Assembly: GCA_005779345.1 (NCBI GenBank)
Contig: SXJQ01000087.1
Coordinates: 1-38,341 of the forward strand
DNA: 38,341 bases
Direction: 5' to 3'
Source of the DNA: Actinomycetota bacterium
Lineage (GTDB): Bacteria; Actinomycetota; Acidimicrobiia; IMCC26256; PALSA-610
This document shows positions 13,887 to 37,697 of the stretch, in pieces. Within the stretch, counting starts at the first letter, position 1. Every line of letters starts with the position of its first letter. The position numbers and the translations under genes are program-made. Under the pieces are notes generated by a model, which saw nothing but the letters and a program-made list of their open reading frames with translations, had not been told where the DNA came from and did not search any database.

Positions 13887-13947
13887 CGAACCCGCCGCGC
13901 CACGGCATTCCCCGTCTCGACATCGCGAACCAGAAAGGCGCCACGCC

Positions 13948-15389: not shown

Positions 15390-15417
15390 CGCGAGCAGCG
15401 CATCTAGCGTGTCGACC

Positions 15418-18158: not shown

Positions 18159-19639
18159 TCCGCGTCGTGAGCCCTCGGCGTTGGACTCGCTTCGGCCGGT
18201 TCCTGCTCGCGATCGCGCTCGTCGCGCTCGCCGTGCGGATCACGTACGTCGCGTGGGGCAAGGGCGGATCGTGTCCGACGGGTGTCGAAGACGTCGTCGC
18301 CCCGACCCAGTGCCCGTCGGTCGATCCCGACACGCCGAACGACAGCACCTATTACAACTCCGCGGCGAACCATCTCGCGCGCGGCGGCGGGCTCACCGAC
18401 CCGTTCCGCCCCGACGAGCCCGCGGCCGATCACCCGCCGCTGACGGTGTTCGCGCTCGCCCCGGTGTCGTGGCTCGGCGATCGCCTGCCCGACTCGTGGA
18501 TCGGCGACCCGACGAATCAGGTTCCGCAGCGTTATGCGATGGCGTTGTTCGGCACCGCGGTCGTGGTCGGGATCGGCTTCGCCGGGCGGCGTCTCGGTCG
18601 CTCCGGCGATCTCGGCGGCCCAGGCGATCGCGGTCGCGCGGACCGGGGCGACTCGGTCGGCCTCATCGCCGCGGGCGTGGCCGCGATCTATCCCGGCCTC
18701 TGGATCAGCGACGCGCTGATCTTCTCCGAGACGGTCACGAACCTCGCCGTCGTGCTCGCGATCCTCGCGGCATTGCGGGCGCGTGAGGCGCTCACGACCC
18801 GGCGGCTCGTGATCCTCGGCGTCGCGTGTGCACTCGCCGGCCTCGCCCGCGCCGAGTTGTTGCTCTTCGGCCCGCTCCTCGCGGCGATCATCGTGCCGTG
18901 GCGCGAGCCGAAGGTGTTGCGTCGAATCGGCGCGGTCGCAGTCGGTGCGATCGCGCTCGTCGGTCCGTGGGTCGTCTACAACAACCTCCGCTTCGAGGAG
19001 TTCACCTTCGTCTCGACGAACGACGGCCTCGCGATCGCGGCATCGAACTGCGAGCCTGTGTACCACGGCGCCAACATCGGGTTGACGAGCTACGACGCGG
19101 CGCCTGCCGACGCCGCGCCCGAGATCAAGGCCGATCCGATCTACTGCGTCGAGATCTGGGATCGTGACGACCTCGAAATGTGTCCGCAACGGGTCGCGCA
19201 GTGCGGCGACCAGTCGGAGGTGTCGAAGTATTTGCGGGATCGGACTCTGCGGTACATCGGCAACAACATGAAGTGGCAGCCCGTCGTCATGTCGGCGCGG
19301 GTCGGGCGAGTCTGGAACCTGTATCGACCGTTCGACATGGTCTGGTTCAACGAGGGCGAGGACCGCGAAGCCTGGGCGACGCGATCGGCCCTGTTCTCGT
19401 TCTATCCGGTGGCGTTGCTCGCGGTCGTCGGCGGGATCCGACTCCGGCGTGATCGCCGCACGCTGCTGGCGCTCCTCGTGCCGATCGCGGTCGTCACGAT
19501 CGGTGCCGCGGTCACCTACGGTCAGGCGCGCTACCGCGCGGCCGCGGAGCCGAGCCTCGTACTGCTGGCCGCGGTGGCCCTAGCGTGGATCGCCGGGCGT
19601 CGAGCCCGAGCCGGAGGGTCCGAGGAGGTGCAGGGGTGA
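18155..19639 (+). CDS. ArnT/PMT-like GT-C membrane glycosyltransferase
   Basis: ORF 17828..19639 trimmed to ATG 18155 (ATGA overlap 18155-18158). Motifs: DSTYYNSAANHLA ... ADHPPL. It is homologous along its length to the C-terminal halves of the two AT3 fusion proteins (LWISDALIFSE vs LWINDEMLMSE, ARVGRVWNLYRP vs ARIGRMWDVYRP). Confidence 0.75.
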   Translation: MIRVVSPRRWTRFGRFLLAIALVALAVRITYVAWGKGGSCPTGVEDVVAPTQCPSVDPDTPNDSTYYNSAANHLARGGGLTDPFRPDEPAADHPPLTVFALAPVSWLGDRLPDSWIGDPTNQVPQRYAMALFGTAVVVGIGFAGRRLGRSGDLGGPGDRGRADRGDSVGLIAAGVAAIYPGLWISDALIFSETVTNLAVVLAILAALRAREALTTRRLVILGVACALAGLARAELLLFGPLLAAIIVPWREPKVLRRIGAVAVGAIALVGPWVVYNNLRFEEFTFVSTNDGLAIAASNCEPVYHGANIGLTSYDAAPADAAPEIKADPIYCVEIWDRDDLEMCPQRVAQCGDQSEVSKYLRDRTLRYIGNNMKWQPVVMSARVGRVWNLYRPFDMVWFNEGEDREAWATRSALFSFYPVALLAVVGGIRLRRDRRTLLALLVPIAVVTIGAAVTYGQARYRAAAEPSLVLLAAVALAWIAGRRARAGGSEEVQG

Positions 19640-21195
19640 GCGAGCGCCAGCCGCGGATCGGGATCCTCGTGGTCGCGTACAACGCCGCCGCCACCCTCGC
19701 GCACGTCCTCGACCGCATCCCGCGCGACTTCGCACCGCGGATCAGCGAGGTCCTCGTCTTCGACGATCACAGCGACGACGCGACCTATCTCGTCGGACTC
19801 GGCTATCAGCAGGCCAACGCGCACCTGCCGCTCCGGGTGTTCCGGAACGACCGCAATCTCGGCTACGGCGGCAACCAGAAGGCCGGGTATCGGTGGGCGA
19901 TCGAGCACGACCTCGACATCATCGTGCTGTTGCACGGCGACGGCCAGTACGCGCCCGAGATGCTCCCCGAGATGGTCGCCCCGCTCGAGCGCGGCGAGGC
20001 CGACGCGGTCTTCGGGTCGCGGATGCTCACGAAGGGCGCGGCGCGTCGCGGCGGAATGCCGGTCTACAAGTACGTCGGCAACAAGATCCTGACCCGGGTG
20101 CAGAACGCGATCGGTGGCGCCGATCTCTCGGAGTGGCACAGCGGCTACCGCGCCTACTCGGTCGCCGCGCTCCGCAAGATCCCCTTCGAGCGCAATGTCG
20201 ACGTCTTCGACTTCGACTGCCAGATCATCATCCAACTGCTCGAGACGCAGCAGCGCATCGTCGAGATCCCGATTCCGACCTACTACGGCGACGAGATCTC
20301 CTACGTGAACGGGCTCGGCTACGCCCGCGACGTCGTGCGTGACGTCGTCGTCTACCGCGCGCACAAGATGGGCTTCGGGAGCGGAGCGACGGCCTTCGCC
20401 TCGCGCGAGTACGAGCTCAAGGAGGAGGCCGCGACCTCGCACCGCTCGATCGTCGCCGCGCTGTCGGTCGGCCCGCCGCGACGGGTGCTCGACCTCGGTT
20501 GCTCCGCCGGGCACCTCGCTGCCGAACTGCGCAAACTCGGCCACGAGGTGGTCGGGGTCGATGTCGAGGAACACGCCGAGGTCGCCGAACGCGTCGACCG
20601 ATTCGTGCGCGCGGATCTCGACGACGGGATCCCCGAGGCGGTCGGCGACGGATTCGACATCGTGCTCGCCGCCGACGTGCTCGAACACGTGCCGCACCCC
20701 GAACACATGCTGCGCGACGCCCGCCGCGTGCTCGCCCCGGGTGGCCGCATGCTCGTCTGCGTTCCCAACATCGGACACTGGTACCCGCGAGCGCGGGTCG
20801 CGGCCGGCCGGTTCGCGTACGAACGCCGCGGCATCCTCGACGCAGGGCACGTGCGGTTCTTCACGCGACGCAGCTTCGGGCAACTCGCGCGCGAGCAGGG
20901 GTTCGAGATCACACGCCGCTGGGCCGTCGGTGTGCCCATCGAGGTCACCGCACGCGCTGCCGGTGGTCGGGTGACCGGGCGCACGACCCCGACCGCGCGG
21001 CGTTCGGGCCCGAACGCGGTGTTGCGCGCTGCGGGGCGGGTCGACGCCGCGCTCGCCCGGGCGTGGCCGACGCTGTTCGGTTACCAGCTCCTGTTCGAGC
21101 TCACTCCGCGTCGGGACACTGCAAGACCGGCCCCGACGGAGACGGCGGTGGCACCCCACACGGACGCTGGAACACCCTCGCCAACCCGAAGCTGA
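19636..21195 (+). CDS. GT2 (polyprenol-phosphate sugar synthase-like) glycosyltransferase fused to class I SAM methyltransferase
   Basis: ORF 19585..21195 trimmed to GTG 19636 (GTGA overlap 19636-19639). The N-terminal half carries GILVVAYNAA, FDDHSDD and LLHGDGQY (GT-A DxD type). The C-terminal half carries VLDLGCSAGHLA (SAM motif I) and DIVLAADVLEHVP. Confidence 0.85.
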   Translation: MSERQPRIGILVVAYNAAATLAHVLDRIPRDFAPRISEVLVFDDHSDDATYLVGLGYQQANAHLPLRVFRNDRNLGYGGNQKAGYRWAIEHDLDIIVLLHGDGQYAPEMLPEMVAPLERGEADAVFGSRMLTKGAARRGGMPVYKYVGNKILTRVQNAIGGADLSEWHSGYRAYSVAALRKIPFERNVDVFDFDCQIIIQLLETQQRIVEIPIPTYYGDEISYVNGLGYARDVVRDVVVYRAHKMGFGSGATAFASREYELKEEAATSHRSIVAALSVGPPRRVLDLGCSAGHLAAELRKLGHEVVGVDVEEHAEVAERVDRFVRADLDDGIPEAVGDGFDIVLAADVLEHVPHPEHMLRDARRVLAPGGRMLVCVPNIGHWYPRARVAAGRFAYERRGILDAGHVRFFTRRSFGQLAREQGFEITRRWAVGVPIEVTARAAGGRVTGRTTPTARRSGPNAVLRAAGRVDAALARAWPTLFGYQLLFELTPRRDTARPAPTETAVAPHTDAGTPSPTRS

Positions 21196-22582
21196 TCGCG
21201 CCCCCGGCGACACAGATCGCGACGACGCCCGCGAGCACGGCGCGCGACCTGCGGCGCGCGACCAGCACCTGCATCCCGACGATCGCCAGCACGAGCAGCG
21301 GCGGGAAGAAGTCGGCCAGGTACCGGTGCGAGACGAACGCGATCGTCAGCACGAAGCTCGTCCCGAGCGCACCGCCGACCACCGGACCCCACACCGCAGT
21401 GAGCGCGGGGCGGCGGACGAGCGCGACGACCCCGACGAGACCGAGGACCACGAAGCCCGGGAGGCTCGCCGGGAGGCTCGACGAACGATCGAGGGTGTCG
21501 AAGACGGCGTCGCCGAAGACATGGGCCCGCGGCGGAAACGCGACGAACGGTGCGCGGTCGTCGACGCGGATCGCGTCGGGTCGGAGGTACTGCCAGAGGG
21601 TCGTCGGCACGTACTGCAGGCCGAAGAGCGAGCCGTCGTTCGCGGCCAGGGCCGCCTCACGCGCGTCGTTGAGCGTGCCGAACCCGTCGGGGTCGCTGAA
21701 CACCTGGTGATCGAGGGGGAGCCGGGTCGGACTCCCGAACCGCGCGGTGTTGGCCCCGGCGTGCAGCACGACGGGCACGATCACAGCGGCGGCGAGCACC
21801 GCGAGGTGCCGGCGGAAGTCGCGACCCGAATCGGGCTGACGCGAGTCGGTCCGGCCTGAGTCGGGCTGGCTCGGCGCAGCGAAGCGGGCTCGCGTCCGCG
21901 GCCACGCGTAGCCGGCCGTGAACAGCGCGACGCCGGCGACCGCGCCGAGCCCGACCGAGATGCGCGAGGTCGTCGTGATCGCGGCCCACACGGCGACCCA
22001 GGCCGCACCGCGCGTCGACGGCGCGCGTGCGAATCGAAACAACGCGTCGGCCGTCGCGACCGCTCCGGCGATGCCCCACAACTCCATCTCGTGGTACACG
22101 ACACCGCGGCTCATGAGGAACGTCGCGATCGATCCGGCACCGACGAGGAGTTGGAACCCCGCGACGGCCCACGGTTCGGCGCGTCCCACGGGCGCGCCCG
22201 GCCGCAGCGCATCGCGCACGGCCCACGAGAGCCGCGCCGAGAACCACAGCAAGAGGCCCGAGGCGAGCAACATCGACGCGATCGCGAGGCGGCCGTCCCA
22301 GGAGTCGGGGAGTGCGGCGAACGGGACGCGGAGCAGGCTCGGCCAGATCCCGAAGTAGGTGTGGCGCCGGCCGTCGATCACGAACGCCTCGAGACCGAGC
22401 ACATCGGGTCGGCTCGGCAGGTCCCACCGGCCGTGGAGCCACGCCGAAGCCTGGGCGGGATGGATCCCCGCGAACGGTTGCGAGGTGCGGGTGATCAGCA
22501 ACGCGCCGACGAGCCACGCGGCGCTCGAACCGATCCACGCCGCACGCGTGAGACGCGCGTCGGGGCTCGGCGGGGAGGCCAT
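21101..22582 (-). CDS. polytopic membrane protein of unknown function (possible GT-C type enzyme)
   Basis: ORF 21101..22960 trimmed to ATG 22582 (MASPPSPD), 8 nt after a TAGAGT box (plus strand 22591-22596). It has many hydrophobic segments and I recognised no family motif. Its 3' end overlaps the convergent GT2-MT gene by 95 nt. Confidence 0.6.
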   Translation of the reverse strand: MASPPSPDARLTRAAWIGSSAAWLVGALLITRTSQPFAGIHPAQASAWLHGRWDLPSRPDVLGLEAFVIDGRRHTYFGIWPSLLRVPFAALPDSWDGRLAIASMLLASGLLLWFSARLSWAVRDALRPGAPVGRAEPWAVAGFQLLVGAGSIATFLMSRGVVYHEMELWGIAGAVATADALFRFARAPSTRGAAWVAVWAAITTTSRISVGLGAVAGVALFTAGYAWPRTRARFAAPSQPDSGRTDSRQPDSGRDFRRHLAVLAAAVIVPVVLHAGANTARFGSPTRLPLDHQVFSDPDGFGTLNDAREAALAANDGSLFGLQYVPTTLWQYLRPDAIRVDDRAPFVAFPPRAHVFGDAVFDTLDRSSSLPASLPGFVVLGLVGVVALVRRPALTAVWGPVVGGALGTSFVLTIAFVSHRYLADFFPPLLVLAIVGMQVLVARRRSRAVLAGVVAICVAGGAISFGLARVFQRPCGVPPPSPSGPVLQCPDAE

Positions 22583-22590
22583 CGGCGGCG

Positions 22591-22630
22591 ACTCTACGCG
22601 CCGCCCATCGGGTGCGCGACCCCGTACGAT
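22591..22630. promoter_or_regulatory. back-to-back -10-like boxes in the 55-bp divergent gap
   Basis: TAGAGT (complement of 22591-22596) lies 8 nt before ATG 22582 on the minus strand. TACGAT (22625-22630) lies 7 nt before TTG 22638 on the plus strand. Confidence 0.35.
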
Positions 22631-22637
22631 CGGCACC

Positions 22638-25088
22638 TTGCGACGGTCCGAGCGGCTCCCCGGGTTCGACGGCCTGCGGGCCGTCGCTGCGCTCGCGGTG
22701 TTCACGTACCACGTCGACTTCTTCGCCGCGGGCCTCGCGGATTCGCTCGGCCACCGCCTGCTGCAACAACTCCGGGTCGGCGTGTGGGTGTTCTTCGCGC
22801 TGTCGGGATTCCTGTTGTACCGGCCGTGGGCGGCCGCGCACCTCGACGGAGCGAAGCGCCCCGACCTGCGTTCGTACCTGCGCAACCGGGCGTTGCGCAT
22901 CCTGCCCGCGTACTGGGCCTGCCTCACGTTCTTCGTCTTCGTCAGCCGCGCCGGCCTCACGTTCGAATCGCCCGTCGGTGTCCTCGCCCGCCAGTACGGC
23001 CTCGTGCAGATCTACGCGCGGTCCGACGCCGGACTCGGCACCTTCCGCGGGTTGCCCCACACCTGGAGTCTCGCCGTCGAGTTGTCGTTCTACGTCGCGC
23101 TGCCCCTCTACGCCGCGCTCGTCGGCGCGGTGGTACGGCGCCGTCCCGGTCGGGCGTTCGCTGTCGAGGTCGGTGGTATCGCCGTGCTCGTCGCACAGTG
23201 GGTCGCCTGGACGGTCGCCACCGACGGCGACGCGGTCCGCCAGCAGTGGCTCCCGAACTTCTCGATGGCGTTCGGCGTCGGGATGTTGCTCGCGGTGCTC
23301 ACGACGGAGCGCGGTGCGGCGACCGCAGTGGCCCGCATCCTCCGCTCGGTCGCGCGACCCGCGCTGCTCTGGCCTGCGGCCGCGGTCGCGCTCGTCGTGC
23401 GCAGCCGGTTCGAGATCCGCGCCGAGAACGGACTCGGCTCCCAAGTGCTGTACGCGCTCGCGGCTGTCGCGCTCGTTGCTCCCTTCGCGCTCGCTGGGGA
23501 GCGAGCGGGCGACTCGGCGATCGGGCGGGTGCTCGGCCATCGCGTCGTCGTCTGGCTCGGCACCGTCTCGTACGGAATCTTCCTCTGGCACTACCACATC
23601 GTCGCGATTGCACGCGACGACTGGCTCGACGCCCCGAGTGGTTGGAACGGCGAGGTCACGCTGGGCGTCGTCGCGCTCGCGGCGACCCTGGTCGGCGCGG
23701 CCGCGAGCTGGTACGTCGTCGAACGGCCGGCGCTCGCCTGGCGCCGACGCGTCGCACCGGTGCTCGCGGAATGGAGCGATCGGCGATTCCGGATATCGCT
23801 CGCGGCGGTGACGGCGGCCGGGTTCGTGTGGCGCGTCGTGTACGTGCTCGGGCAGCGGGGCCGCCAACCGCTGAACGGCGACGCCGCGTACTACCACCTC
23901 CAGGCGACCGCGGTCGCGCGCGGCATCGGTTTCGTCGATCCGTTCCAGTGGGATCAGCTCGGACGCATTCGCCAGAGCGCCGGCCACCCACCGGCCTACA
24001 TCCTCTACCTCGCCGGCTTCACCAAGGTCGGGTTGGGGAGCGAGACGCAGCACCGCCTCGCGTCGTGCCTGCTCGGCGCAGCCGCGATCGCGGTGATCGG
24101 GTTCGCGGGGCGTGCGATCGCGGGGAACCGGGTCGGCGTCGTGGCTGCGTTGGCCGCCGCGGGCTACGCGAACCTGTGGATCAACGACGAGATGCTCATG
24201 TCGGAGAGCATGGCCGCGCTGGCGTTCGCGTTCGTGGTGCTCGCCGTGTACCGCTACGTCGCGATCCCGACCCGGCGGCGCGTGTTGGCGGCCGGCGCCG
24301 CGATCGGATTCGCGGCGCTCAGCCGCGCCGAGCTGCTCGCGCTCGCGGTGCTCATCGTCGTGCCGCTCGTGTGGCGGTGCGTCGGCGATCGCCGTGAGCG
24401 ATTCGTGCAGATCGTCGGTGCGGGCGCGGTGTGCGCCCTGCTCGTGGCGCCGTGGGTGCTGTACAACGTCGGGCGATTCGAGCACCCGGTGCTGATGAGC
24501 AACGGCACCGGCGGCGTACTGCTCGTCGGCAACTGCGACGAGACCTACCACGGCGAACTGCTCGGCTACTGGTACGTCGGGTGTGGTGGCGCGGCCGCGG
24601 TGTCGCTCGTCGGCGACGAGTCGGAGCGCGAAGCGATCTGGCGCGAGCAGGGCCTCACCTACCTCAGCGATCACGTCGAGCGGTTTCCGGTGGTCGCCGC
24701 GGCACGGATCGGCCGCATGTGGGACGTGTACCGACCCGAGCAGAACATCTCGCTCAACATCGCGCTCGAGGGTCGCGGGCGCTCGGCCCCGCGGCTCGCG
24801 TTCTGGCAGTACGTGTTCCTGCTCCCGTTCGCCGGCGCGGGGCTCGTCGCGCTGCGCCGCCGCAGGGTCCCGATCTGGCCGCTGCTCGCAACCGCCGGAC
24901 TGATCACGTTCACCGCGGTGCTGGCGTTCGGGATCACGCGTTACCGCGTTCCGATCGATGTCGCGTTGCCGATCCTCGCGGCCGTCGGCGGCGTCGCTTG
25001 GTGGTCGGGCGAGTTCGGTGCCGCGCGAGCGCCGTCGGCGCGCACGTCTGGGCCCGCTCAGCCGGCGAGGCACTCCGACACGGCGTAG
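22638..25088 (+). CDS. fusion protein: N-terminal Acyl_transf_3 (AT3) acyltransferase + C-terminal ArnT/PMT-like GT-C glycosyltransferase
   Basis: ORF 22359..25088. AT3 motifs: GFDGLRAVAALAVFTYH, FFALSGFLLYRPW, RALRILPAYW, TVSYGIFLWHY. GT-C part: LNGDAAYYH, SAGHPPAYILY, LWINDEMLMSE, RFEHPVLMSNG. The only in-frame start after the divergent gene is TTG 22638, 7 nt after TACGAT (22625-22630), so the start is uncertain. Confidence 0.8.
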   Translation: MRRSERLPGFDGLRAVAALAVFTYHVDFFAAGLADSLGHRLLQQLRVGVWVFFALSGFLLYRPWAAAHLDGAKRPDLRSYLRNRALRILPAYWACLTFFVFVSRAGLTFESPVGVLARQYGLVQIYARSDAGLGTFRGLPHTWSLAVELSFYVALPLYAALVGAVVRRRPGRAFAVEVGGIAVLVAQWVAWTVATDGDAVRQQWLPNFSMAFGVGMLLAVLTTERGAATAVARILRSVARPALLWPAAAVALVVRSRFEIRAENGLGSQVLYALAAVALVAPFALAGERAGDSAIGRVLGHRVVVWLGTVSYGIFLWHYHIVAIARDDWLDAPSGWNGEVTLGVVALAATLVGAAASWYVVERPALAWRRRVAPVLAEWSDRRFRISLAAVTAAGFVWRVVYVLGQRGRQPLNGDAAYYHLQATAVARGIGFVDPFQWDQLGRIRQSAGHPPAYILYLAGFTKVGLGSETQHRLASCLLGAAAIAVIGFAGRAIAGNRVGVVAALAAAGYANLWINDEMLMSESMAALAFAFVVLAVYRYVAIPTRRRVLAAGAAIGFAALSRAELLALAVLIVVPLVWRCVGDRRERFVQIVGAGAVCALLVAPWVLYNVGRFEHPVLMSNGTGGVLLVGNCDETYHGELLGYWYVGCGGAAAVSLVGDESEREAIWREQGLTYLSDHVERFPVVAAARIGRMWDVYRPEQNISLNIALEGRGRSAPRLAFWQYVFLLPFAGAGLVALRRRRVPIWPLLATAGLITFTAVLAFGITRYRVPIDVALPILAAVGGVAWWSGEFGAARAPSARTSGPAQPARHSDTA

Positions 25089-25684: not shown

Positions 25685-27238
25685 ATGGCCGCGACCGCAA
25701 CGCCCCGATCTGATCCAGCCGCGGCGCAGGTCGTCGTCATCGGTGCCGGCCCTGCCGGGCTCACCGCCGCGTACCACCTCACCAAGGCGGGCGTCACGCC
25801 GACGATCCTCGAGGCCGACGACGTCGTCGGCGGGATCAGCCGAACGGTCGAGCGCGACGGCTGGCGCTTCGACATCGGCGGGCACCGCTTCTTCACCAAG
25901 GTCAAGGCCGTCGACGACCTGTGGTTCGAGATCCTCGGTGAAGACGAGTTCCTGCAACGGCCGCGGATGAGTCGCATCTACTACCGCGGCAAGCTCTACG
26001 ACTACCCCCTCAAGCCGCTGAACGTGCTGCGCAACATCGGGTTCATCGAAGCGGTGCGGTGCGTCGCGTCGTACCTCTGGGTCCGGGTTCGTCCACCGAA
26101 AGACACGAGCAACCTCGAGGGTTTCTACGTGAGCATGTTCGGTTGGCGCCTCTACGGGCATTTCTTCGACCACTACAACCAGAAGGTGTGGGGAGTCCCG
26201 ACCCGCCAGATGTCGGCCGACTTCGGTGCGCAGCGCGTCAAGGGCATGTCGTTGATGACGGCCGTCCGCGAGGGATTCACGCCGAAGTTCGTCAAGAATC
26301 GTCGCAGCAAGGGCCAACAGGTCACGTCGCTCATCGAGTCGTTCAACTACCCGAAATTCGGCCCCGGCCAGATGTGGGAGCGGTGCACCGAGATCGTCAT
26401 CGGGCGCGGTTGCACCGTCGACTTCGGTGCGCGCGTCGTGCGGATCACCCATGCCGACGGACGCGCCGAATCGGTCGTCGTCGAGGTCGACGGTGCCGAG
26501 CGCGCCTATCCCTGCACCCACGTCGTCTCCTCGATGCCGTTTCGCGATCTGATCCGCGCGATCGACCCGCCCGTCCCGCCCGAGGTCCGGGCCGCGGCCG
26601 AGGGGCTCGGCTACCGCGACTTCATCACGGTCGCGCTCGTGGTGCCGCAGGAGTACTCGTTCCCCGACAACTGGATCTACATCCACGACCCCGACGTGAA
26701 GGTCGGCCGCATCCAGAACTTCGGGTCGTGGTCGCCCTACCTCGTGAAGGAGGGCCGCACCTGTCTCGGGCTCGAGTTGTTCGTCAACGAGGGCGACGAC
26801 ACCTGGACGAAGTCCGACGACGACCTCATCGCGCAGGCCAAGCGCGAGATCCAACACCTCGGCCTCGCCGACGCGTCGAAGGTCGAAGCCGGTTACGTCG
26901 TGCGCATGCCGAAGGCGTACCCGGTCTACGACGAGTACTACCAAGCCAACGTGAAGGTGCTGCGCGACTGGATCGCGGCGAACGCGCCGAACATCATGCC
27001 GACCGGTCGCAACGGCATGCACAAGTACAACAACCAGGATCACTCGATGCTCACCGCCATGCTGTCGGTCGAGAACATCCTCGGCGCCCATCACGACGTG
27101 TGGACCGTCAACGTCGAGTCCGAGTACCACGAGGAACAGATGGGAAGCGACGCCCCCTCGTCGGGTCGTGACGCGCCGGTGCTGCCGAGGGCGGCGATCG
27201 AAGCCGCGGCCCGGCAGCGGCAGGCGGCGGCCGACTGA
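25685..27238 (+). CDS. FAD-dependent oxidoreductase (amine-oxidase / UDP-galactopyranose-mutase-like fold)
   Basis: 517-aa ORF with the dinucleotide fold VVVIGAGPAGLTAAYHL..EA and DIGGHRFF. It is preceded by GGGAG/GGGGGAG Shine-Dalgarno sequences at 25671-25684. Confidence 0.8.
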   Translation: MAATATPRSDPAAAQVVVIGAGPAGLTAAYHLTKAGVTPTILEADDVVGGISRTVERDGWRFDIGGHRFFTKVKAVDDLWFEILGEDEFLQRPRMSRIYYRGKLYDYPLKPLNVLRNIGFIEAVRCVASYLWVRVRPPKDTSNLEGFYVSMFGWRLYGHFFDHYNQKVWGVPTRQMSADFGAQRVKGMSLMTAVREGFTPKFVKNRRSKGQQVTSLIESFNYPKFGPGQMWERCTEIVIGRGCTVDFGARVVRITHADGRAESVVVEVDGAERAYPCTHVVSSMPFRDLIRAIDPPVPPEVRAAAEGLGYRDFITVALVVPQEYSFPDNWIYIHDPDVKVGRIQNFGSWSPYLVKEGRTCLGLELFVNEGDDTWTKSDDDLIAQAKREIQHLGLADASKVEAGYVVRMPKAYPVYDEYYQANVKVLRDWIAANAPNIMPTGRNGMHKYNNQDHSMLTAMLSVENILGAHHDVWTVNVESEYHEEQMGSDAPSSGRDAPVLPRAAIEAAARQRQAAAD

Positions 27239-27240: not shown

Positions 27241-28485
27241 ATGCCGGGCGTGGCCCCCGGCCCGGCGCACGCCTCGGCCCAGCTCGAGTCCGGTCGGCCG
27301 CACGTCGCGGGGCTCGAAGGCCTGCGGGCGCTCGGCGCCGTCGCGGTGTTCGTGAAGCACTCGAGCCTCGCGACCGGCAAGCAGTACGACACTGGCTGGG
27401 CGTGGCTGAACCACTTCGAGATCGGCCCGACACTGTTCTTCGTGCTGTCGGCGTTCCTCGTCTACCAGCCGTTCGCTGCCGCGCACCTCGCCGGACGGCC
27501 GCTGCCGTCGTTGACCCGATTCGCTCGGCATCGCGTGCTGCGCGTGGTCCCGGCGTACTGGGTTGCCCTCGCAATCATGCTCGTGTTCCTGCGCGCTCCC
27601 GAGCAGGGGTCGTTCGGGTTGCACGTGCGCGACGCTCGCTCCGTACTCCAGTTGTTCACGTTCACGCAGATCTACGACCCGGTCCGCTTCTTCGACGGCA
27701 TCGCCGCCGCGTACACGCTGTGCGTCGAGGTGTCGTTCTACGTGTTCGTGGCCGGTTGGGTCGTGCTGGTGCGGCGAATCGCGCCGCGCGCTGCGGCGCC
27801 GGCGCAACGCCTGCGCGTCGAGTTCGCCGGCATCGGCGTGCTCGTCGGCCTCGCGCTCGGCTGGCGGTTCCTCGTCGGTTTCGTGTTCCGGCCCGACGGT
27901 GACGCCGTGTGCAGCGCGACCTCGACCCACTGGACGTGCGCGGCCGCGAACTGGCTACCGGGCTACCTCGCGTACTTCGCGCTCGGCATGTTGCTCGCGG
28001 TGCTGGTGGTTTGGACGCGCGGCCACGGGCCGATCACCGCGTTCGACCGCGCGAGCGACCGCACCGTGCCCTGGCTCGTGCTCGCCGGTGGCGTGTTCTG
28101 GCTCTACAGCGCGCGCTACGGCACACGCGGGCTCGACTCGCGCACGGGTATCGACGGCGAGGTGCGGCACCTCCTGAACGGTCTCATCGTGTTGGCCGCG
28201 ATCGTGCCGTTGCTCGGGCGCCGCCGATCGCGGTATCGATCGTTGCTCGCCGGGCGGCCGCTCGTGTACCTCGGTGTCGTGTCGTACGGGTTCTACCTCT
28301 GGCACCAGGCATTCATCGATCGGCTCATGATCTGGACCGACGCGCGGCCGTTCGACGGATCGTTCGCCGTCGTCGCGCCAACCGCGTTCGCGCTCGCGGT
28401 CGCTGCTGCCGCCGTGAGCCACCGCGCCATCGAGGAGCCGATCCGACGCCGCCGCGACGGGTTGTTGGTCGGGGCCCGCACATGA
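27241..28485 (+). CDS. Acyl_transf_3 (AT3) family membrane acyltransferase
   Basis: 414-aa ORF with GLEGLRALGAVAVFVKH, FFVLSAFLVYQPF, RVLRVVPAYW and VVSYGFYLWHQ. It starts 2 nt after the flavoprotein stop. Confidence 0.85.
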   Translation: MPGVAPGPAHASAQLESGRPHVAGLEGLRALGAVAVFVKHSSLATGKQYDTGWAWLNHFEIGPTLFFVLSAFLVYQPFAAAHLAGRPLPSLTRFARHRVLRVVPAYWVALAIMLVFLRAPEQGSFGLHVRDARSVLQLFTFTQIYDPVRFFDGIAAAYTLCVEVSFYVFVAGWVVLVRRIAPRAAAPAQRLRVEFAGIGVLVGLALGWRFLVGFVFRPDGDAVCSATSTHWTCAAANWLPGYLAYFALGMLLAVLVVWTRGHGPITAFDRASDRTVPWLVLAGGVFWLYSARYGTRGLDSRTGIDGEVRHLLNGLIVLAAIVPLLGRRRSRYRSLLAGRPLVYLGVVSYGFYLWHQAFIDRLMIWTDARPFDGSFAVVAPTAFALAVAAAAVSHRAIEEPIRRRRDGLLVGART

Positions 28486-30917
28486 CCGCCACGACCGAGA
28501 CCGATCCGATCGTCACCCGGCCGTCGGATCCGGGTCGCATCCTCGGGCTCGAGGGTTTGCGTGCGATCGCGATCGCCGCGGTGTTCCTCACGCACACCGG
28601 ATACGTCACCGGCGTGACAGGTCGGTCCGACTGGGGCGCGTTCCTCGGCCGCCTCGAGATCGGCCCCACGATCTTCTTCATGATCTCGGCGTTCCTCCTC
28701 GGCCTGCCGTTCGCCGAGGCGAACCAGGCGGGCGCCCGTGCGCCGAGCGCCCGCCGGTTCCTGCGGCGCCGCGCGGTGCGGGTGTTCCCCGCGTACTGGC
28801 TGACGCTCGTCCTGTTGTTCGTGGTCTTCGGGGTCGACGTCGACGGGTTCGGCGACGTCGTACGGCTCGCGACCCTGACCCACATCTACAGCGACGATGG
28901 GTTCTTCTCGGTGTCGGTGCTCGTCCCCACGTGGACACTTGCGACCGAACTCGCGTTCTATGCGTTTCTCCTCGGCTGGGCCGCGGCGGTGCGCCGCATC
29001 GGTCGCGACCGCGACGCGGCAGGCCGTTTGTCGCTCGAACTGATGCTCGTCGGCGTCCTCGTGGTGATTGCGTTCGCCTTCCGGGCGCTCGTCGACGCCG
29101 AGATCGGGCTCCCGGCCGTCGCGGAGTTCTGGCTGCCGGGCCAGCTCGACATCTTCGCGGTCGGCCTCGGGTTCGCGTCGATCGTCGCCTACGTGCGCGT
29201 CACCGGCAACACGCCGCGGCTCGCGACGCTCGTTCGGCGAGGCCCCGATGTCGTCGTCGGCCTCGCCGGGCTCGCGTACCTCGGCGTGCCGCTCTTCACC
29301 AACGTGAGTCGCGGGCTGGTGCTCACGAACGAGACCTCGCTCGACGGCCACCTCGCCCACGCGTTCTACCTGCTGTGTGCCACGCTGCTCCTGGCCCCGA
29401 TCGCGTTGCGCTCGCCGGCGCGCAGCGCGTATCTCTGGTTCGTGCGGTTGCGGCCGGTCGCGTACTTCGGGCTCGTGTCGTACGGCTTCTACCTCTGGCA
29501 CGACCACTTCATCGTCGAGACGGCGGGCTGGTCGGGCGGCACGTTGCTGCCCTACCCGCACGCCGACTTCTGGATCGTCGCGAGCGCGGCCTTCGCGCTG
29601 AGTCTCGTCGCGGGATCGATCAGCTACCACGTCGTCGAGCGGCCCGCGCTCGACCTCGACGCCGGTCGCTTCGCCGCGCTGCGAGCGCGGGCGCGAGAAG
29701 CATCGAGCATCGTGCCCGCCGTCATCGCCGGGACGCGCACCGCGGCGACGAACTTCGACCTGTTCGATGGTCTCCGCGCGATCGCCGCGCTCACGGTCGT
29801 GCTGCACCACGTCGCCCTACCCACCGGGAGGCAGAACAACGGCTTCTGGGCGTCCTATCTCACCGAGTTCGACGTCGGCGTCGCGATCTTCTTCCTCATC
29901 TCGGGCTTCTTGCTCTACCGGCCGTTCGTCACGCGCGCCCTCGGCGACGAACCGGAGCCGCCGCTCGGTCGGTTCCTCGTGCGTCGGGCCGTGCGGATCT
30001 ACCCCGCCTACTGGTTCGCGCTCGCCGGCATCCTGGTTTTCGTCGGGTTCCAGGCGCCCGTCGCCGACGGCCTGCCCCAGTACCTCAGCTACTTCGGGCT
30101 CGTGCACGTGTACTTCCGCGACTGGGCGGCAGGCGGGATGTCGCAGGCGTGGACGCTGGCCGTCGAGGTGACGTTCTACCTGTTCCTCCCGGTGTGGGCG
30201 GCGCTCGTGCGCCGCCTCGGTGCGGGCCGGTCCGGCGTCACGCGCGTGCACCTCCAGCTCGGCGCGCTGGCGGCCATGTATCTGTTCGCGGTCGCGTTTC
30301 GCGCGTACTGCTACTGGGGCGCGGGCGACGACCTGGCGTTCCTCGGCGTCTACTGGCTGCCGGCGAACCTCGACCTGTTCGCGCTCGGTATGGGTGTCGC
30401 CGTGGTGAGCGCGGGCGCGCAGGCCGGTGTCGTCTCGCAACGGGTCACCGCGCGGCTCGCAACGATCGGGTCGTGGTCGTGGCTCGGCTCGATCGGCGCG
30501 TTCGTCGTGCTGTGCAACGCGTTCGATCTCCCGCTCGGTATCGCGGTTCGCCCCGACGGTTGGCAGGGACACGTGAAGCAGGCGACCTTCGGGCTGGTCG
30601 CGCTCGGGCTGTTGCTCCCCGCGGTCTTCGCGACGGCCGGCCGCGATCCGATTCGGCGGCTGCTCGCGTGGCGTCCGCTCGCCTATTGCGGCGTCGTGTC
30701 GTACGGCATCTACCTGTGGCACCAGGCATGGGCGAAGAAGGCCGTCGGTTGGCAGGCGCGCCCGTTGTTCGCCGCCGACTTCGTCACCGTGCTCGCGGCG
30801 ACCCTGGCGCTCACGCTGCTGGCGGCATCGGTCAGTTGGTTCGTGGTCGAACGCCCGCTGATGCGGGCCGTCCACCGCAAGATCGTGGCGCGCCCGCCGA
30901 TGGAACCGGTGGCATGA
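28482..30917 (+). CDS. tandem AT3-AT3 double acyltransferase (two complete Acyl_transf_3 domains in one ORF)
   Basis: ORF 27909..30917 trimmed to ATG 28482 (ATGA overlap 28482-28485). Domain 1 has GLEGLRAIAIAAVFLTH, FFMISAFLLG, RAVRVFPAYW and LVSYGFYLWHD. Domain 2, from about nt 29751, has FDGLRAIAALTVVLHH, FFLISGFLLYRPF, RAVRIYPAYW and VVSYGIYLWHQ. No stop codon separates the domains. Confidence 0.8.
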   Translation: MTATTETDPIVTRPSDPGRILGLEGLRAIAIAAVFLTHTGYVTGVTGRSDWGAFLGRLEIGPTIFFMISAFLLGLPFAEANQAGARAPSARRFLRRRAVRVFPAYWLTLVLLFVVFGVDVDGFGDVVRLATLTHIYSDDGFFSVSVLVPTWTLATELAFYAFLLGWAAAVRRIGRDRDAAGRLSLELMLVGVLVVIAFAFRALVDAEIGLPAVAEFWLPGQLDIFAVGLGFASIVAYVRVTGNTPRLATLVRRGPDVVVGLAGLAYLGVPLFTNVSRGLVLTNETSLDGHLAHAFYLLCATLLLAPIALRSPARSAYLWFVRLRPVAYFGLVSYGFYLWHDHFIVETAGWSGGTLLPYPHADFWIVASAAFALSLVAGSISYHVVERPALDLDAGRFAALRARAREASSIVPAVIAGTRTAATNFDLFDGLRAIAALTVVLHHVALPTGRQNNGFWASYLTEFDVGVAIFFLISGFLLYRPFVTRALGDEPEPPLGRFLVRRAVRIYPAYWFALAGILVFVGFQAPVADGLPQYLSYFGLVHVYFRDWAAGGMSQAWTLAVEVTFYLFLPVWAALVRRLGAGRSGVTRVHLQLGALAAMYLFAVAFRAYCYWGAGDDLAFLGVYWLPANLDLFALGMGVAVVSAGAQAGVVSQRVTARLATIGSWSWLGSIGAFVVLCNAFDLPLGIAVRPDGWQGHVKQATFGLVALGLLLPAVFATAGRDPIRRLLAWRPLAYCGVVSYGIYLWHQAWAKKAVGWQARPLFAADFVTVLAATLALTLLAASVSWFVVERPLMRAVHRKIVARPPMEPVA

Positions 30918-33605: not shown

Positions 33606-33613
33606 GGTGGCGA

Positions 33614-33623
33614 AAACTAGTGT
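33614..33623. promoter_or_regulatory. two overlapping divergent -10-like boxes around an ACTAGT palindrome
   Basis: This is the only AT-rich patch in the region (gaaaactagtgt). TAGTGT (33618-33623) lies 7 nt before GTG 33631 on the plus strand. TAGTTT (complement of 33614-33619) lies 8 nt before GTG 33605 on the minus strand. Both GTGs are in frame with the flanking ORFs. Confidence 0.45.
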
Positions 33624-33630
33624 CCGCCCG

Positions 33631-37654: not shown

Positions 37655-37662
37655 GACGGAGC

Positions 37663-37690
37663 AATCTACCGGCGACGAGGGGCGATACCC
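37663..37690. promoter_or_regulatory. back-to-back -10-like boxes between the AT3-GT-C fusion gene and the GT2 gene
   Basis: TAGATT (complement of 37663-37668) lies 8 nt before GTG 37654 on the minus strand. TACCCT (37685-37690) lies 7 nt before ATG 37698 on the plus strand. Confidence 0.35.
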
Positions 37691-37697
37691 TGACCTC

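What the first reader, a model, noticed from the sequence alone, without database searches (positions are those of the whole stretch)
22638..25088. Single ORF fusing an AT3 acyltransferase to an ArnT/PMT-like GT-C glycosyltransferase
The first ~370 residues carry all the AT3 motifs (GFDGLRAVAALAVFTYH ... TVSYGIFLWHY ... VVERPALAW). The same frame then continues without a stop into a GT-C module (LNGDAAYYH, SAGHPPAY, LWINDEMLMSE). That module is homologous to the stand-alone gene at 18155-19639. The AT3 fusions I know of couple the AT3 domain to a periplasmic SGNH domain (OafA type). A covalent AT3::GT-C pairing would couple acyl export and glycosyl transfer on one polypeptide, for example acylation of the sugar that the same enzyme has just added. 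As I recall, AT3 has 10 TM helices with both ends cytoplasmic, and GT-C enzymes start in the cytoplasm, so the fusion is topologically plausible without an extra helix.
Basis: partly seen in the sequence, partly recalled or inferred. Interest (0 to 1): 0.8.

Follow-up and report, generated by a model that had tools for sequence, protein, structure and literature searches.

The report
Acyltransferase fused to membrane glycosyltransferase
One gene really does encode a 20-helix membrane protein that joins an acyl-exporting enzyme (AT3) to a lipid-sugar-dependent glycosyltransferase (GT-C); the fusion recurs in both domain orders in uncultured Actinomycetota, has not been studied, and is a covalent counterpart of an AT3/GT-C complex reported in mycobacteria in 2026.

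Summary
Window 22638-25088 (+) is a single 816-aa gene with a TTG start. It carries a complete AT3 domain (PF01757, aa 9-356) followed by a GT-C module (PF13231, aa 450-609; GT-C fold by Foldseek).

It is not a frameshift. GC3 stays at about 0.9 in one frame across the junction. The same protein occurs in three independent assemblies. Among the 276 proteins fetched, 52 have the order AT3->GT-C and 40 the reverse order GT-C->AT3, and all named sources are Actinomycetota MAGs.

Catalytic signatures are conserved in both halves and both orders: AT3 R14-X10-H25, FFxxSG, R84xxR87 and E362; GT-C D415, D517/E523 and R563/E565.

The gene sits in an envelope-glycan island with a second paralogous fusion, an AT3::AT3 tandem, two further AT3 genes, several GT-C-like genes and two GT2 genes of the polyprenyl-phosphate-sugar synthase type.

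The most likely function is coupled extracytoplasmic glycosylation and O-acylation of one envelope glycan. The closest known system is the non-covalent TmaT-AftD complex (bioRxiv, July 2026). I rate it a new variant of a known kind, of moderate to high interest. The substrates are unknown.

The parts
22638..25088 (+). FUS1: whole AT3::GT-C fusion gene, 816 aa, TTG start, TAG stop
   Evidence: It is identical to the NCBI protein P0001.
22638..23723 (+). AT3 module (aa 1-362), 10 TM helices plus a short re-entrant element. Key residues are R14 (22677-22679), H25 (22710-22712), FFALSG 52-57, R84/R87 (22887-22898), E148, S311/Y312/W317/H318 and E362 (23721-23723).
   Evidence: Pfam. These residues are invariant or near-invariant in 32 same-order fusions. 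The motif definitions come from PMC7448272 and the TmaT preprint.
23724..23777 (+). Cytoplasmic Arg-rich linker (aa 363-380, RPALAWRRRVAPVLAEWS) between AT3 TM10 and GT-C TM1
   Evidence: It contains no hydrophobic segment. In homologues the whole E362-to-D415 stretch, which includes this linker and GT-C TM1, is 43-60 aa.
23778..25022 (+). GT-C module (aa 381-795): 10 TM helices, a first outer loop at aa 406-468 and a roughly 100-aa outer domain at aa 614-715. Key residues are R399, D415 (23880-23882), H450-P451-P452, D517/E518/E523 (24186-24206), R563/E565, R690/R693 and R768/R770.
   Evidence: Pfam PMT_2. The residues are invariant in 60/60 fusions. Foldseek hits only GT-C folds.
25023..25085 (+). 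Disordered cytoplasmic C-terminal tail (aa 796-816)
   Evidence: pLDDT is below 50 for aa 800-816. The tail is not conserved.
21101..22582 (-). Divergently transcribed polytopic membrane protein (493 aa) with no family assignment; a conserved neighbour of FUS1 orthologues
19585..21195 (+). GT2 glycosyltransferase fused to a SAM-methyltransferase; candidate polyprenyl-P-sugar synthase for module 1
   Evidence: Pfam. NCBIfam gives weak matches to AglJ, Dol-P hexose transferase and PpgS.
18155..19639 (+). Stand-alone paralogue of the GT-C module (494 aa)
   Evidence: 32% identity over 415 aa, E 5e-42. The PMT_2 match is weak.
25685..27238 (+). FAD/NAD(P) oxidoreductase of the PRK07208 family, conserved next to fusions of both domain orders
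   Evidence: NF005548 at 735 bits.
27241..28485 (+). Stand-alone AT3 gene
28482..30917 (+). In-frame AT3::AT3 tandem (811 aa)
   Evidence: The two halves are separate genes in L001.
30914..32116 (+). Stand-alone AT3 gene
35084..37699 (-). FUS2: second, paralogous AT3::GT-C fusion (about 871 aa; start ATG 37699 or GTG 37654)
   Evidence: Pfam AT3 plus PMT_2. It is 42% identical to FUS1 over 777 aa.
37335..38339 (+). Open reading frame (not a start-refined gene) holding a GT2 of the polyprenyl-phosphate-sugar synthase type; it runs off the window end and is divergent from FUS2. The GT2 domain begins near 37731.
   Evidence: Best NCBIfam match is PpgS, E 1e-31, below the equivalog cut-off. It travels with FUS2 orthologues.
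32118..33638 (-). DUF2142 membrane protein (Pfam PF09913), conserved neighbour of FUS2 orthologues

Best explanation
FUS1 is a genuine single-polypeptide, bifunctional, 20-TM inner-membrane enzyme that tailors an envelope glycan on the outer face of the membrane.

- **GT-C half.** It takes a polyprenyl-phosphate-linked sugar, made on the cytoplasmic face by a GT2 synthase encoded in the same island and then flipped. It transfers that sugar to an extracytoplasmic acceptor, using D415 in the first outer loop and the D517/E518/E523 acidic cluster in the second.
- **AT3 half.** It binds cytoplasmic acyl-CoA through the R14/R84/R87 (and probably R363) arginine cluster. It threads the thioester up a central channel, and H25 catalyses acyl transfer to a sugar hydroxyl on the outer face.
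- **Effect of fusion.** Covalent fusion fixes a 1:1 stoichiometry and holds the AT3 channel mouth next to the GT-C acceptor groove. Glycosylation and O-acylation then act on the same glycan, possibly on the residue just added.

What is shown: one gene, both domains intact, both catalytic signatures under purifying selection, a compatible topology, and recurrent independent fusion. What is inferred: the donor, acceptor and acyl group, the order of the two reactions, and the physical juxtaposition of the two active sites.
For: - **One gene.** The frame and GC3 are continuous. An 816-aa protein of the same 90%-identity cluster occurs in NCBI, ENA and Logan assemblies. Full-length homologues at 30-58% identity align through the junction without a break.
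- **Recurrent fusion in both orders.** I annotated the 276 fetched proteins with local HMMs. The result was 52 AT3->GT-C, 40 GT-C->AT3, 5 AT3-AT3 and 5 GT-C tandems. Pfam confirmed the reverse order on six proteins.
  - A neighbour-joining tree of 230 GT-C modules needs about 20 architecture changes.
  - AT3 domains of the two orders are no closer to each other (33% identity) than to stand-alone AT3s. This points to independent fusions and therefore to selection for coupling.
- **Catalytic residues kept.**
  - In the AT3 half, H25, R84, R87, F52, F53, S56, E148 and E362 are present in 32/32 sequences and R14 in 31/32. They correspond to the essential OafA residues R14, H25, R69, R72 and E325 (PMC7448272). 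They also match the acetyl-CoA-binding R27/R96/R99/R365 and H38 of TmaT.
  - In the GT-C half, R399, D415, P451, P452, E523, R563, R690 and R768 are present in 60/60 sequences.
  - The same residue set is invariant in the reverse-order group.
- **Fold and topology.** AF2 gives pLDDT 90.8 and pTM 0.81. The helices parse as 10 + 10 TM, with D415 at the N-terminus of the first outer-loop helix. Foldseek hits only GT-C enzymes: STT3, AglB, PglB, Pmt1/2/4, ArnT, EmbA/B, AftB and ALG9/12. Neither order needs an extra TM helix.
- **Context.** The island holds PpgS-, AglJ- and ArnC-like GT2 enzymes, further AT3 genes and further GT-C-like genes. This arrangement is conserved in other MAGs.
- **Precedent.** The mycobacterial AT3 protein TmaT and the GT-C enzyme AftD form a 1:1 complex. 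A periplasmic groove joins the AT3 channel to the GT-C active site (bioRxiv 10.64898/2026.07.31.741936).
Against: - There is no biochemical or genetic data for any member, and every source is an uncultured MAG.
- I could not read the model coordinates or the PAE, so the juxtaposition of the two active sites rests only on the high pTM.
- The GT-C catalytic assignment (D415; D517/E523) rests on invariance and position, by analogy with other GT-C enzymes. It does not come from a residue-level structural superposition.
- PDB sequence searches found no relative.
- No flippase or primary polymer-synthesis genes were recognised in the window.
- Fusion could merely ensure co-expression without any mechanistic coupling.
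Confidence: 0.68

Rival explanations
1. The AT3 half acylates the lipid-linked donor, not the final glycan. It modifies the polyprenyl-P-sugar (or another lipid-linked intermediate) at the outer leaflet or during flipping. The GT-C half then transfers the already acylated sugar, or acylation gates delivery of the donor.
For: TmaT was proposed to acetylate a lipid-linked intermediate (TMM) to aid its transport, and the authors note that the true substrate may be an arabinogalactan (AG) intermediate. Both domains would share a lipid-facing site in a fused protein. Pol-P-sugar synthase-type GT2 genes lie adjacent.
Against: Characterised bacterial AT3 enzymes (OafA/B, Oac, OatA, WecH) mostly act on assembled or polymer-level glycans (PMC9558356). 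Nothing in the sequence discriminates between the two orders of reaction.
Confidence: 0.15
2. The fusion serves co-expression only. The two domains are independent enzymes that decorate different positions or different polymers. Fusion then reflects the ease of joining membrane modules that both start and end in the cytoplasm, with no functional coupling.
For: The same families also form AT3-AT3, GT-C-GT-C and GT-C x3 tandems. This suggests promiscuous, topology-permitted fusion. In the reverse order the linkers are long, disordered and variable at 55-150 aa.
Against: This particular pair has been fused repeatedly and independently in both orders. The linker in the AT3->GT-C order is short and conserved. 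pTM is 0.81 for the two-domain model. The unfused TmaT-AftD pair shows a physical and functional interaction.
Confidence: 0.12
3. One domain is a non-catalytic scaffold. For example, the GT-C module could act only as the acceptor-binding or presenting domain, replacing the SGNH domain of OafA-type proteins. Alternatively, the AT3 module could only stabilise or regulate the GT-C.
For: In AT3-SGNH proteins the partner domain carries out or guides the final transfer. AftD was suggested to serve as a scaffold for TmaT.
Against: Candidate catalytic residues of both domains are invariant across 60 fusions and in both orders. Stand-alone paralogues of the GT-C carry the same motifs.
Confidence: 0.04
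4. The fusion is an artefact: two adjacent genes joined by a sequencing, assembly or frameshift error.
For: The window is a MAG contig. High-GC sequence yields many long spurious ORFs.
Against: An 816-aa protein of the same 90%-identity cluster appears in three independent assemblies. More than 50 same-order fusions from different organisms align across the junction. There is no GC3 discontinuity. A paralogous fusion lies in the same window.
Confidence: 0.01

Closest known systems
TmaT-AftD complex of mycobacteria (AT3 acyltransferase plus GT-C arabinofuranosyltransferase; bioRxiv 10.64898/2026.07.31.741936)
   Same: Both pair an AT3 with a GT-C in an actinobacterial inner membrane at 1:1 stoichiometry. 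TmaT has 10 TM helices and a re-entrant helix. It binds acetyl-CoA with an arginine tetrad and uses the His of the R-X10-H motif, and the corresponding residues are conserved here (R14, R84, R87, H25). In the complex a periplasmic groove links the AT3 channel to the GT-C active site.
   Different: Here the pairing is covalent, in either order. The GT-C is a compact module of about 415 aa and 10 TM helices of the PMT_2 type. It is not the 16-TM AftD with its large periplasmic domain. I did not test orthology of the AT3 half to TmaT. The organisms are non-mycolate, uncultured Actinomycetota.
AT3-SGNH O-acyltransferases (OafA, OafB, OatA, PglI)
   Same: Both have an N-terminal AT3 with the R/K-X10-H, FFxxSG and RXXR motifs and a conserved Glu after TMH10. 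Both are fused to a second domain that works on the outer face.
   Different: The partner here is an integral-membrane GT-C, not a soluble periplasmic SGNH domain. There is no 11th TM helix, and no SGNH domain was found in the Pfam scans of the ORFs tested in the window.
Three-component glycan-tailoring systems: GtrA/GtrB/GtrC with Oac (Shigella, Salmonella), ArnC/ArnT, PpgS/Rv3779
   Same: A GT2 makes a polyprenyl-P-sugar and a GT-C transfers it outside the membrane. In the Shigella and Salmonella O-antigen systems an AT3 (Oac, OafA) decorates the same polymer (background knowledge; PMC9558356; PMC3485146). The GT2 genes of the window best match PpgS, AglJ, Dol-P-hexose transferase and ArnC.
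   Different: In those systems the AT3 and the GT-C are separate proteins, often at separate loci. The window's GT2 genes score far below the equivalog cut-offs, so the sugar is unknown.
ArnT (GT83) and protein O-mannosyltransferases (GT39)
   Same: Both have the GT-C fold and match Pfam PMT_2. Both carry an Asp at the start of the first outer-loop helix and use polyprenyl-P-sugar chemistry.
   Different: No NCBIfam model, including those for ArnT, matched. PF02366 does not match FUS1, and no MIR domain was detected. The module is much shorter than either family. Foldseek E-values are only 4e-3 or weaker.
CASD1 (eukaryotic sialate O-acetyltransferase)
   Same: CASD1 combines a luminal catalytic domain with a multipass transmembrane domain (PMC13043746 abstract). 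That the luminal domain is N-terminal and the membrane domain is AT3-type is background knowledge; if so, AT3 tolerates being the C-terminal module of a fusion, as in the GT-C->AT3 order.
   Different: Its partner is a soluble SGNH-like domain, not a GT-C, and it is eukaryotic.

Membership tests
Acyltransferase-3 (AT3, PF01757/IPR002656) | Match to the family profile above the curated threshold | tested here: met
   PF01757 covers aa 9-356, at 89.5 bits against a gathering score of 31.
Acyltransferase-3 (AT3, PF01757/IPR002656) | R/K-X10-H motif in TMH1 (OafA R14/H25; TmaT R27/H38) | tested here: met
   R14 and H25 are spaced by exactly 10 residues. H25 is present in 32/32 and R14 in 31/32 same-order fusions. 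The reverse order keeps the motif as R464/H475.
Acyltransferase-3 (AT3, PF01757/IPR002656) | RXXR motif and FFXISG motif | tested here: met
   R84-A-L-R87 and F52-F53-A-L-S56-G57 are present, with R84, R87, F52, F53 and S56 invariant and G57 in 30/32. The motif definitions come from PMC7448272.
Acyltransferase-3 (AT3, PF01757/IPR002656) | Ten TM helices with both termini cytoplasmic | tested here: met
   My reading of the AF2 helices gives ten TM helices: 8-30, 37-70, 77-101, 142-168, 170-195, 205-221, 241-255, 266-292, 311-329 and 339-376. There is also a short element at 224-238. The Arg-rich loops fall on the predicted inner side. No dedicated topology predictor was run.
Acyltransferase-3 (AT3, PF01757/IPR002656) | Acyl-CoA-dependent O-acylation of an extracytoplasmic carbohydrate | not testable with these tools
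   This needs biochemistry.
OafA/OatA-type AT3-SGNH fusion | C-terminal periplasmic SGNH domain reached through an 11th TM helix | tested here: not met
   There is no SGNH/GDSL Pfam hit. The C-terminal half is a GT-C instead, and the stretch between AT3 E362 and GT-C D415 holds only the first helix of the GT-C.
GT-C glycosyltransferase superfamily | GT-C membrane fold | tested here: met
   The 34 best Foldseek PDB hits are all GT-C enzymes and 31 of them have probability at or near 1.00 (>=0.98); the lowest three have 0.94, 0.82 and 0.04. E-values are only 4e-3 to 0.6, and TM-scores normalised to the whole query are 0.2-0.32.
GT-C glycosyltransferase superfamily | Conserved acidic residue in the first extracytoplasmic loop, plus an acidic or basic cluster in later outer loops | tested here: met
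   D415 is present in 60/60 and lies at the N-terminus of helix 414-427, after TM1. E523 is in 60/60, D517 in 57/60, R563 in 60/60 and E565 in 59/60. Equivalence to the ArnT and PglB catalytic residues is by position only; no superposition was made.
GT-C glycosyltransferase superfamily | Uses a polyprenyl-phosphate-linked sugar donor | not testable with these tools
   The only support is context. Two GT2 genes of the PpgS/AglJ/ArnC type lie in the island.
Pfam PMT_2 (PF13231) | Profile match above the gathering score | tested here: met
   36.2 bits against 26.1, covering aa 450-609 and profile positions 2-160 of 160.
ArnT (GT83) proper, and PMT (GT39) proper | Match to the ArnT equivalog or PMT (PF02366) models; for PMT, luminal MIR domains | tested here: not met
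   FUS1 has no NCBIfam hit at E<=1e-3. It has no PF02366 or MIR hit. The module is only about 415 aa.
TmaT-AftD-type AT3/GT-C assembly | AT3 and GT-C in physical 1:1 contact, with the AT3 channel opening towards the GT-C active site | tested here: inconclusive
   The 1:1 ratio is guaranteed by the fusion.

The most novel reading that the evidence does not exclude
AT3/GT-C coupling may be a general and repeatedly selected principle of envelope glycan tailoring in Actinomycetota. On this reading the fusions are 'Rosetta stones' with two consequences. First, a GT-C, rather than an SGNH domain, would be the missing acceptor-side partner of many 'AT3-only' acyltransferases. Second, this island would encode a combinatorial set of fused 20-TM modules (AT3-GTC, GTC-AT3, AT3-AT3, GTC-GTC) that builds a heavily acylated and methylated glycan not yet seen in any cultured bacterium. 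Acyl and glycosyl transfer would be mechanistically channelled through a shared periplasmic groove.
Probability: 0.3. Interest if true: 0.8.

Novelty: new variant of a known kind. Interest (0 to 1): 0.6.

Why it matters
AT3 reviews pose an open question: how do AT3-only proteins hand the acyl group to the acceptor, and is a partner protein required (PMC9558356)? A July 2026 preprint shows one AT3 (TmaT) working in a complex with a GT-C (AftD).

The fusions found here give independent evolutionary evidence that this pairing is selected. The pair has been fused repeatedly, in both orders, with the catalytic residues of both halves kept. They also offer a single-chain, 1:1, fairly compact (816 aa) object for structural and enzymatic work on coupled transmembrane acyl and glycosyl transfer.

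They further flag a large, unstudied glycan-decoration island in uncultured Acidimicrobiia-like Actinomycetota. The island holds 6 AT3 domains and at least 4 recognisable GT-C modules, plus up to four more candidate GT-C-like genes, within 24 kb.

Tried and rejected
- **PDB by sequence.** Neither phmmer with FUS1 nor hmmsearch with alignment A1 found a relative. At the library date no AT3 structure was available, so the AT3 half could not be matched by fold either.
- **Global alignment of 60 fusions (A1).** It showed no conserved AT3 columns. This looked like AT3 divergence, but about half of the sequences have the reverse domain order. Re-aligning by order recovered the AT3 motifs.
- **Locus scan.** A1 was too diverse for the search for related loci. 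The closer set A2 worked but reaches only close relatives. My one genome-contig scan is spent, so the taxonomic range is a lower bound.
- **Divergent membrane protein.** hhalign of 21101-22582 against the fusion alignment found no relationship. Its family remains unknown.
- **Literature.** Searches for PF01757+PF13231, Acyl_transf_3+PMT_2, and 'acyltransferase 3'+GT-C+fusion found nothing relevant. The AT3 reviews list only the AT3-only, AT3-SGNH and AT3-alanine-racemase architectures.
- **Circular permutation of one ancestral fusion.** I rejected this as the source of the two orders. AT3 domains of the two orders are no closer to each other than to stand-alone AT3s. The supporting tree is a rough neighbour-joining tree without bootstrap support.
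- **Upstream GTG 22359 as the start.** Rejected. It would overlap the divergent gene's start, and homologues begin at the position of TTG 22638.


Full report

Yes. The window is about 70% GC (0.65-0.73 in 1-kb windows) throughout, so long spurious ORFs abound. Twenty ORFs of at least 80 aa overlap the region, including a 1235-aa antisense ORF.

Only the frame of ORF 22359-25088 (+) has the coding signature. GC3 is 0.83-0.98 in every 180-nt window from 22629 to 25059, with no dip or frame switch at the domain junction.

The resulting 816-aa protein is identical to a protein on record in NCBI (P0001). Proteins of the same 816-aa length, in the same 90%-identity cluster, come from independent ENA and Logan assemblies.

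Homologues begin at the same position. The next in-frame upstream start would run past the ATG (22582) of a divergently transcribed membrane-protein gene.

**2. What are the two halves?**

*Pfam.* PF01757 (Acyl_transf_3) covers aa 9-356 at 89.5 bits against a gathering score of 31. PF13231 (PMT_2) covers aa 450-609 at 36.2 bits against 26.1.

*AT3 half.* In 32 fusions of the same domain order, H25, R84, R87, F52, F53, S56, W143, E148, F151, Y152, S311, Y312, W317 and E362 are invariant. R14 and H318 are each present in 31/32.

These residues match the defining AT3 signatures:
- R/K-X10-H (R14...H25);
- FFXISG (FFALSG, aa 52-57);
- RXXR (R84-A-L-R87);
- the Glu after TMH10.

Alanine substitution of the OafA equivalents R14, H25, R69, R72 and E325 abolishes or strongly reduces activity (PMC7448272). 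In the cryo-EM structure of mycobacterial TmaT, the equivalent arginines R27, R96, R99 and R365 hold the 3'-phospho-ADP of acetyl-CoA. H38 sits above the thioester.

*GT-C half.* R399, D415, G429, A448, P451, P452, E523, R563, P605, W606, S621, R690 and R768 are invariant in 60/60 fusions. D517, H450, E565, R693 and R770 are present in at least 57/60.

*Structure.* An AlphaFold2 model built on that alignment is confident: mean pLDDT 90.8 and pTM 0.81. The 34 best Foldseek PDB matches are all GT-C enzymes, and 31 of them have probability at or near 1.00 (>=0.98). They include STT3, AglB, PglB, Pmt1, Pmt2, Pmt4, ArnT, EmbA/B, AftB, ALG9 and ALG12. The E-values are modest, 4e-3 to 0.6.

Nothing matched the AT3 half. 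That agrees with the preprint's statement that no AT3 structure had been determined before. PDB sequence searches were empty.

*Paralogue.* The homology to the stand-alone gene at 18155-19639 is real: 32% identity over 415 aa, E 5e-42.

**3. Topology**

The helices of the model parse as follows:
- AT3: ten TM helices (8-30, 37-70, 77-101, 142-168, 170-195, 205-221, 241-255, 266-292, 311-329, 339-376) plus a short element at 224-238;
- an Arg-rich linker at aa 363-380;
- GT-C: ten TM helices (381-405, 469-495, 497-519, 523-542, 546-562, 564-581, 585-613, 716-741, 747-762, 767-789).

Arg-rich loops fall on one side. That side also carries the RXXR motif, which is cytoplasmic in TmaT. D415 then lies in the first outer loop, at the N-terminus of helix 414-427. 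D517/E518/E523 lie at the outer TM3/TM4 turn, and a helical domain of about 100 aa (614-715) lies outside.

This parse is my reading of the DSSP string and the charge distribution. No dedicated topology predictor was run.

Oac and OafB have 10 TM helices with both termini in the cytoplasm, and AT3-SGNH proteins need an 11th helix (PMC9833829; PMC9558356). Here no extra helix is needed. In same-order homologues the stretch from the AT3 'ERP' to the GT-C 'GD' is 43-60 aa and holds exactly one hydrophobic helix.

**4. Is it a one-off?**

No, and this is the main addition to the finding. A search of 5.8 billion proteins returned dozens of clusters at 90% identity that carry both Pfam domains, 780-1000 aa long and 30-58% identical to FUS1.

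When the 60-sequence alignment showed no conserved AT3 columns, I found that about half of the sequences have the GT-C at the N-terminus. Pfam confirmed the reverse order, with PMT_2 at about aa 77-270 and AT3 at about aa 456-900.

| Architecture | Count |
|---|---|
| GT-C alone | 132 |
| AT3 -> GT-C | 52 |
| AT3 alone | 42 |
| GT-C -> AT3 | 40 |
| AT3-AT3 | 5 |
| GT-C-GT-C | 4 |
| GT-C x3 | 1 |

The reverse-order group keeps the same catalytic set: D58, HPP 93-95, E170, R210/E212, R464-X10-H475, FFxxSG, R535/R538, E593 and E820.

Its junction consists of the last GT-C helix followed by a non-hydrophobic Pro/Ala/Gly-rich linker of about 30-130 aa. An AF2 model of P0025 has pLDDT 81.4 and pTM 0.70. 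It shows a disordered linker at aa 442-455 and AT3 TM1 starting at aa 460. Thus the GT-C module also ends in the cytoplasm, and either order is topologically legal.

*How many fusion events?* The GT-C module belongs to a large family. A search of 1.84 billion representatives gave 4864 hits at E<=1e-3 and 1204 at E<=1e-30, and most of the top hits are stand-alone proteins of 420-520 aa.

A neighbour-joining tree of 230 GT-C modules with Fitch parsimony needs about 20 architecture changes from a stand-alone root. Its large pure clades hold 19 and 13 sequences (AT3->GT-C) and 24 and 5 sequences (GT-C->AT3).

AT3 domains of the two orders average 33% identity. That is no closer than either is to stand-alone AT3s. 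I therefore read the two orders as independent fusions, not a permutation of one ancestor.

Two caveats apply. The tree has no support values, and the sample is enriched for fusions.

**5. Who has it, and in what context?**

Every named source is a MAG, labelled Acidimicrobiia, Acidimicrobiales, 'Actinomycetes bacterium', Actinomycetota or Actinomyces sp.. Weaker, mostly partial matches come from Solirubrobacterales MAGs. No cultured organism was seen for the AT3/GT-C fusion.

The window itself holds an island from about 14.8 kb to its end:

| Coordinates | Strand | Content |
|---|---|---|
| 15301-17010 | + | Weak PMT_2-like GT-C |
| 17007-18158 | + | PIG-V-like GT-C |
| 18155-19639 | + | Stand-alone GT-C paralogue |
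| 19585-21195 | + | GT2 + SAM-methyltransferase fusion |
| 21101-22582 | - | Unassigned polytopic membrane protein |
| 22638-25088 | + | FUS1 |
| 25685-27238 | + | PRK07208-family FAD oxidoreductase |
| 27241-28485 | + | AT3 |
| 28482-30917 | + | In-frame AT3::AT3 tandem |
| 30914-32116 | + | AT3 |
| 32118-33638 | - | DUF2142 membrane protein |
| 33343-35175 | + | Weak DUF2142-like membrane protein |
| 35084-37699 | - | FUS2, 42% identical to FUS1 over 777 aa |
| 37335 to end | + | GT2, best NCBIfam match PpgS (E 1e-31, below cut-off), then Dol-P-hexose transferase, AglJ and ArnC |

A tblastn synteny table over 28 fetched loci shows two conserved sub-modules:
- FUS1 orthologues travel with the divergent membrane protein, the FAD enzyme (71-77% identity), the GT2-methyltransferase and a GT-C.
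- FUS2 orthologues travel with DUF2142 and the PpgS-like GT2 (55-77% identity).

Both paralogues sit side by side in other genomes. L005 and L010 share one contig. L013 and L019 lie about 10 kb apart on a 4.59-Mb chromosome. A reverse-order fusion (P0034) also has the FAD enzyme immediately upstream and a stand-alone PMT_2 gene immediately downstream.

**6. How it most likely works**

*Established background.* GT-C enzymes use polyprenyl-phosphate sugars made by GT2 synthases. Examples are PpgS with Rv3779 and Ppm1 with the lipoglycan GT-Cs (PMC3485146). AT3 enzymes move an acyl group from cytoplasmic acyl-CoA to an extracytoplasmic carbohydrate.

*Shown here.* Both modules are intact and both catalytic signatures are under purifying selection. 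Their outer-face elements lie on the same side of the membrane. Synthase-type GT2 genes are adjacent. The pair has been fused repeatedly.

*Inferred.* FUS1 glycosylates an envelope glycan from a Pol-P-sugar and O-acylates the same glycan, possibly the sugar just added. The fusion enforces 1:1 stoichiometry and proximity.

The strongest external support is the July 2026 preprint on TmaT-AftD. In that non-covalent 1:1 AT3/GT-C complex, a periplasmic groove connects the AT3 channel to the GT-C catalytic site. The interaction and both catalytic activities are required.

*Rivals.* These are:
- acylation of the lipid-linked donor rather than the product;
- fusion for co-expression only (the AT3-AT3 and GT-C-GT-C tandems show that these modules fuse readily);
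- one domain acting as a non-catalytic scaffold (disfavoured by the invariant residues);
- an artefact (effectively excluded).

The sugar, the acceptor and the acyl group are unknown.

**7. Comparison with what is known, and novelty**

FUS1 is a member of the AT3 family, with every testable criterion met. It is a member of the GT-C superfamily and of Pfam PMT_2.

It is not an OafA-type AT3-SGNH protein: there is no SGNH domain and no 11th helix. It cannot be filed as ArnT or PMT proper: there is no NCBIfam hit, no PF02366 hit and no MIR domain was detected.

The AT3 literature I could read lists only three bacterial architectures: AT3-only, AT3-SGNH and AT3-alanine racemase. Three targeted full-text searches found no paper on an AT3/GT-C fusion.

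Automated pipelines have noticed both domains. JGI names some members 'OafA/YrhL / ArnT-like glycosyltransferase'. So the proteins are in the databases but uncharacterised.

I rate this a new variant of a known kind. Both enzyme classes are known, and their physical partnership has just been shown. What is new is the covalent, bidirectional and recurrent fusion, together with the island around it.

**8. Verdict**

It is richer than described: there is a second copy in the window, the reverse order exists elsewhere, and tandem AT3 and tandem GT-C relatives occur.

Interest is 0.6. A specialist would find it a useful and timely Rosetta-stone argument and a good structural target. The biochemical function remains wholly inferred, and the architecture is not rare in metagenomes.

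Noticed in passing
window 35084-37699 (-): A second, paralogous AT3::GT-C fusion of about 871 aa, 42% identical to FUS1 over 777 aa. It is divergent from a PpgS-like GT2 gene. Its orthologues form their own conserved module with DUF2142 and that GT2 in other MAGs.
   Followed up: partly
window 28482-30917 (+): Two complete AT3 domains lie in one frame with no stop codon, giving an 811-aa AT3::AT3 tandem. In the syntenic locus L001 the same two are separate genes with a stop between them. Five other AT3-AT3 tandems appeared among the homologues, including Acrocarpospora corrugata Acor_29090 (P0070).
   Followed up: partly
window 25685-27238 (+); L001 12537-14087; L004 8463-9950: A PRK07208-family FAD/NAD(P) oxidoreductase (NF005548, 735 bits) sits next to the fusion gene in loci of both domain orders. 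It is 71-77% identical in the syntenic FUS1-type loci and 60% in the reverse-order locus L004. Its role in the pathway is unexplained.
   Followed up: partly
window 21101-22582 (-): A 493-aa polytopic membrane protein is transcribed divergently from FUS1, with a 55-bp gap. It is conserved with FUS1 orthologues at 39-50% identity. It has no significant Pfam or NCBIfam family, and hhalign found no relation to the fusion.
   Followed up: partly
window 19585-21195 (+): A GT2 glycosyltransferase is fused to a SAM-dependent methyltransferase in a single 536-aa protein. It is conserved in syntenic loci at 64-69% identity. This suggests a methylated sugar or lipid-linked donor.
   Followed up: no
proteins P0129-P0134, P0040, P0135, P0192, P0235, P0266 (no window coordinates): Relatives of the GT-C module also occur as GT-C-GT-C and GT-C x3 tandems. 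Others are proteins of 1330-1440 aa in which an AT3-GT-C core is followed by about 550 further residues that I did not identify.
   Followed up: no
L013 (OY970315.1, 3832533-3850853): tblastn matches FUS1 residues 19-782, but the called protein (P0013) stops at 526 aa. This may be a frameshift or pseudogene, or an indel error in that MAG assembly.
   Followed up: no
window 1-14400: The left third of the contig is unrelated to the island. It encodes GGDEF/EAL, two acyl-CoA dehydrogenases, an alpha/beta hydrolase, hydantoinase A and B, an AMP-dependent ligase, a PilZ protein, an amidohydrolase, a zinc alcohol dehydrogenase (ADH) and a luciferase-like monooxygenase. The ADH and the luciferase-like genes are nevertheless syntenic with the island in several MAGs.
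   Followed up: no
window 21657-25364 (-): A 1235-aa ORF lies antisense to FUS1. It has no coding GC3 signature and is a shadow ORF typical of a 72% GC sequence. It is not a gene.
   Followed up: yes
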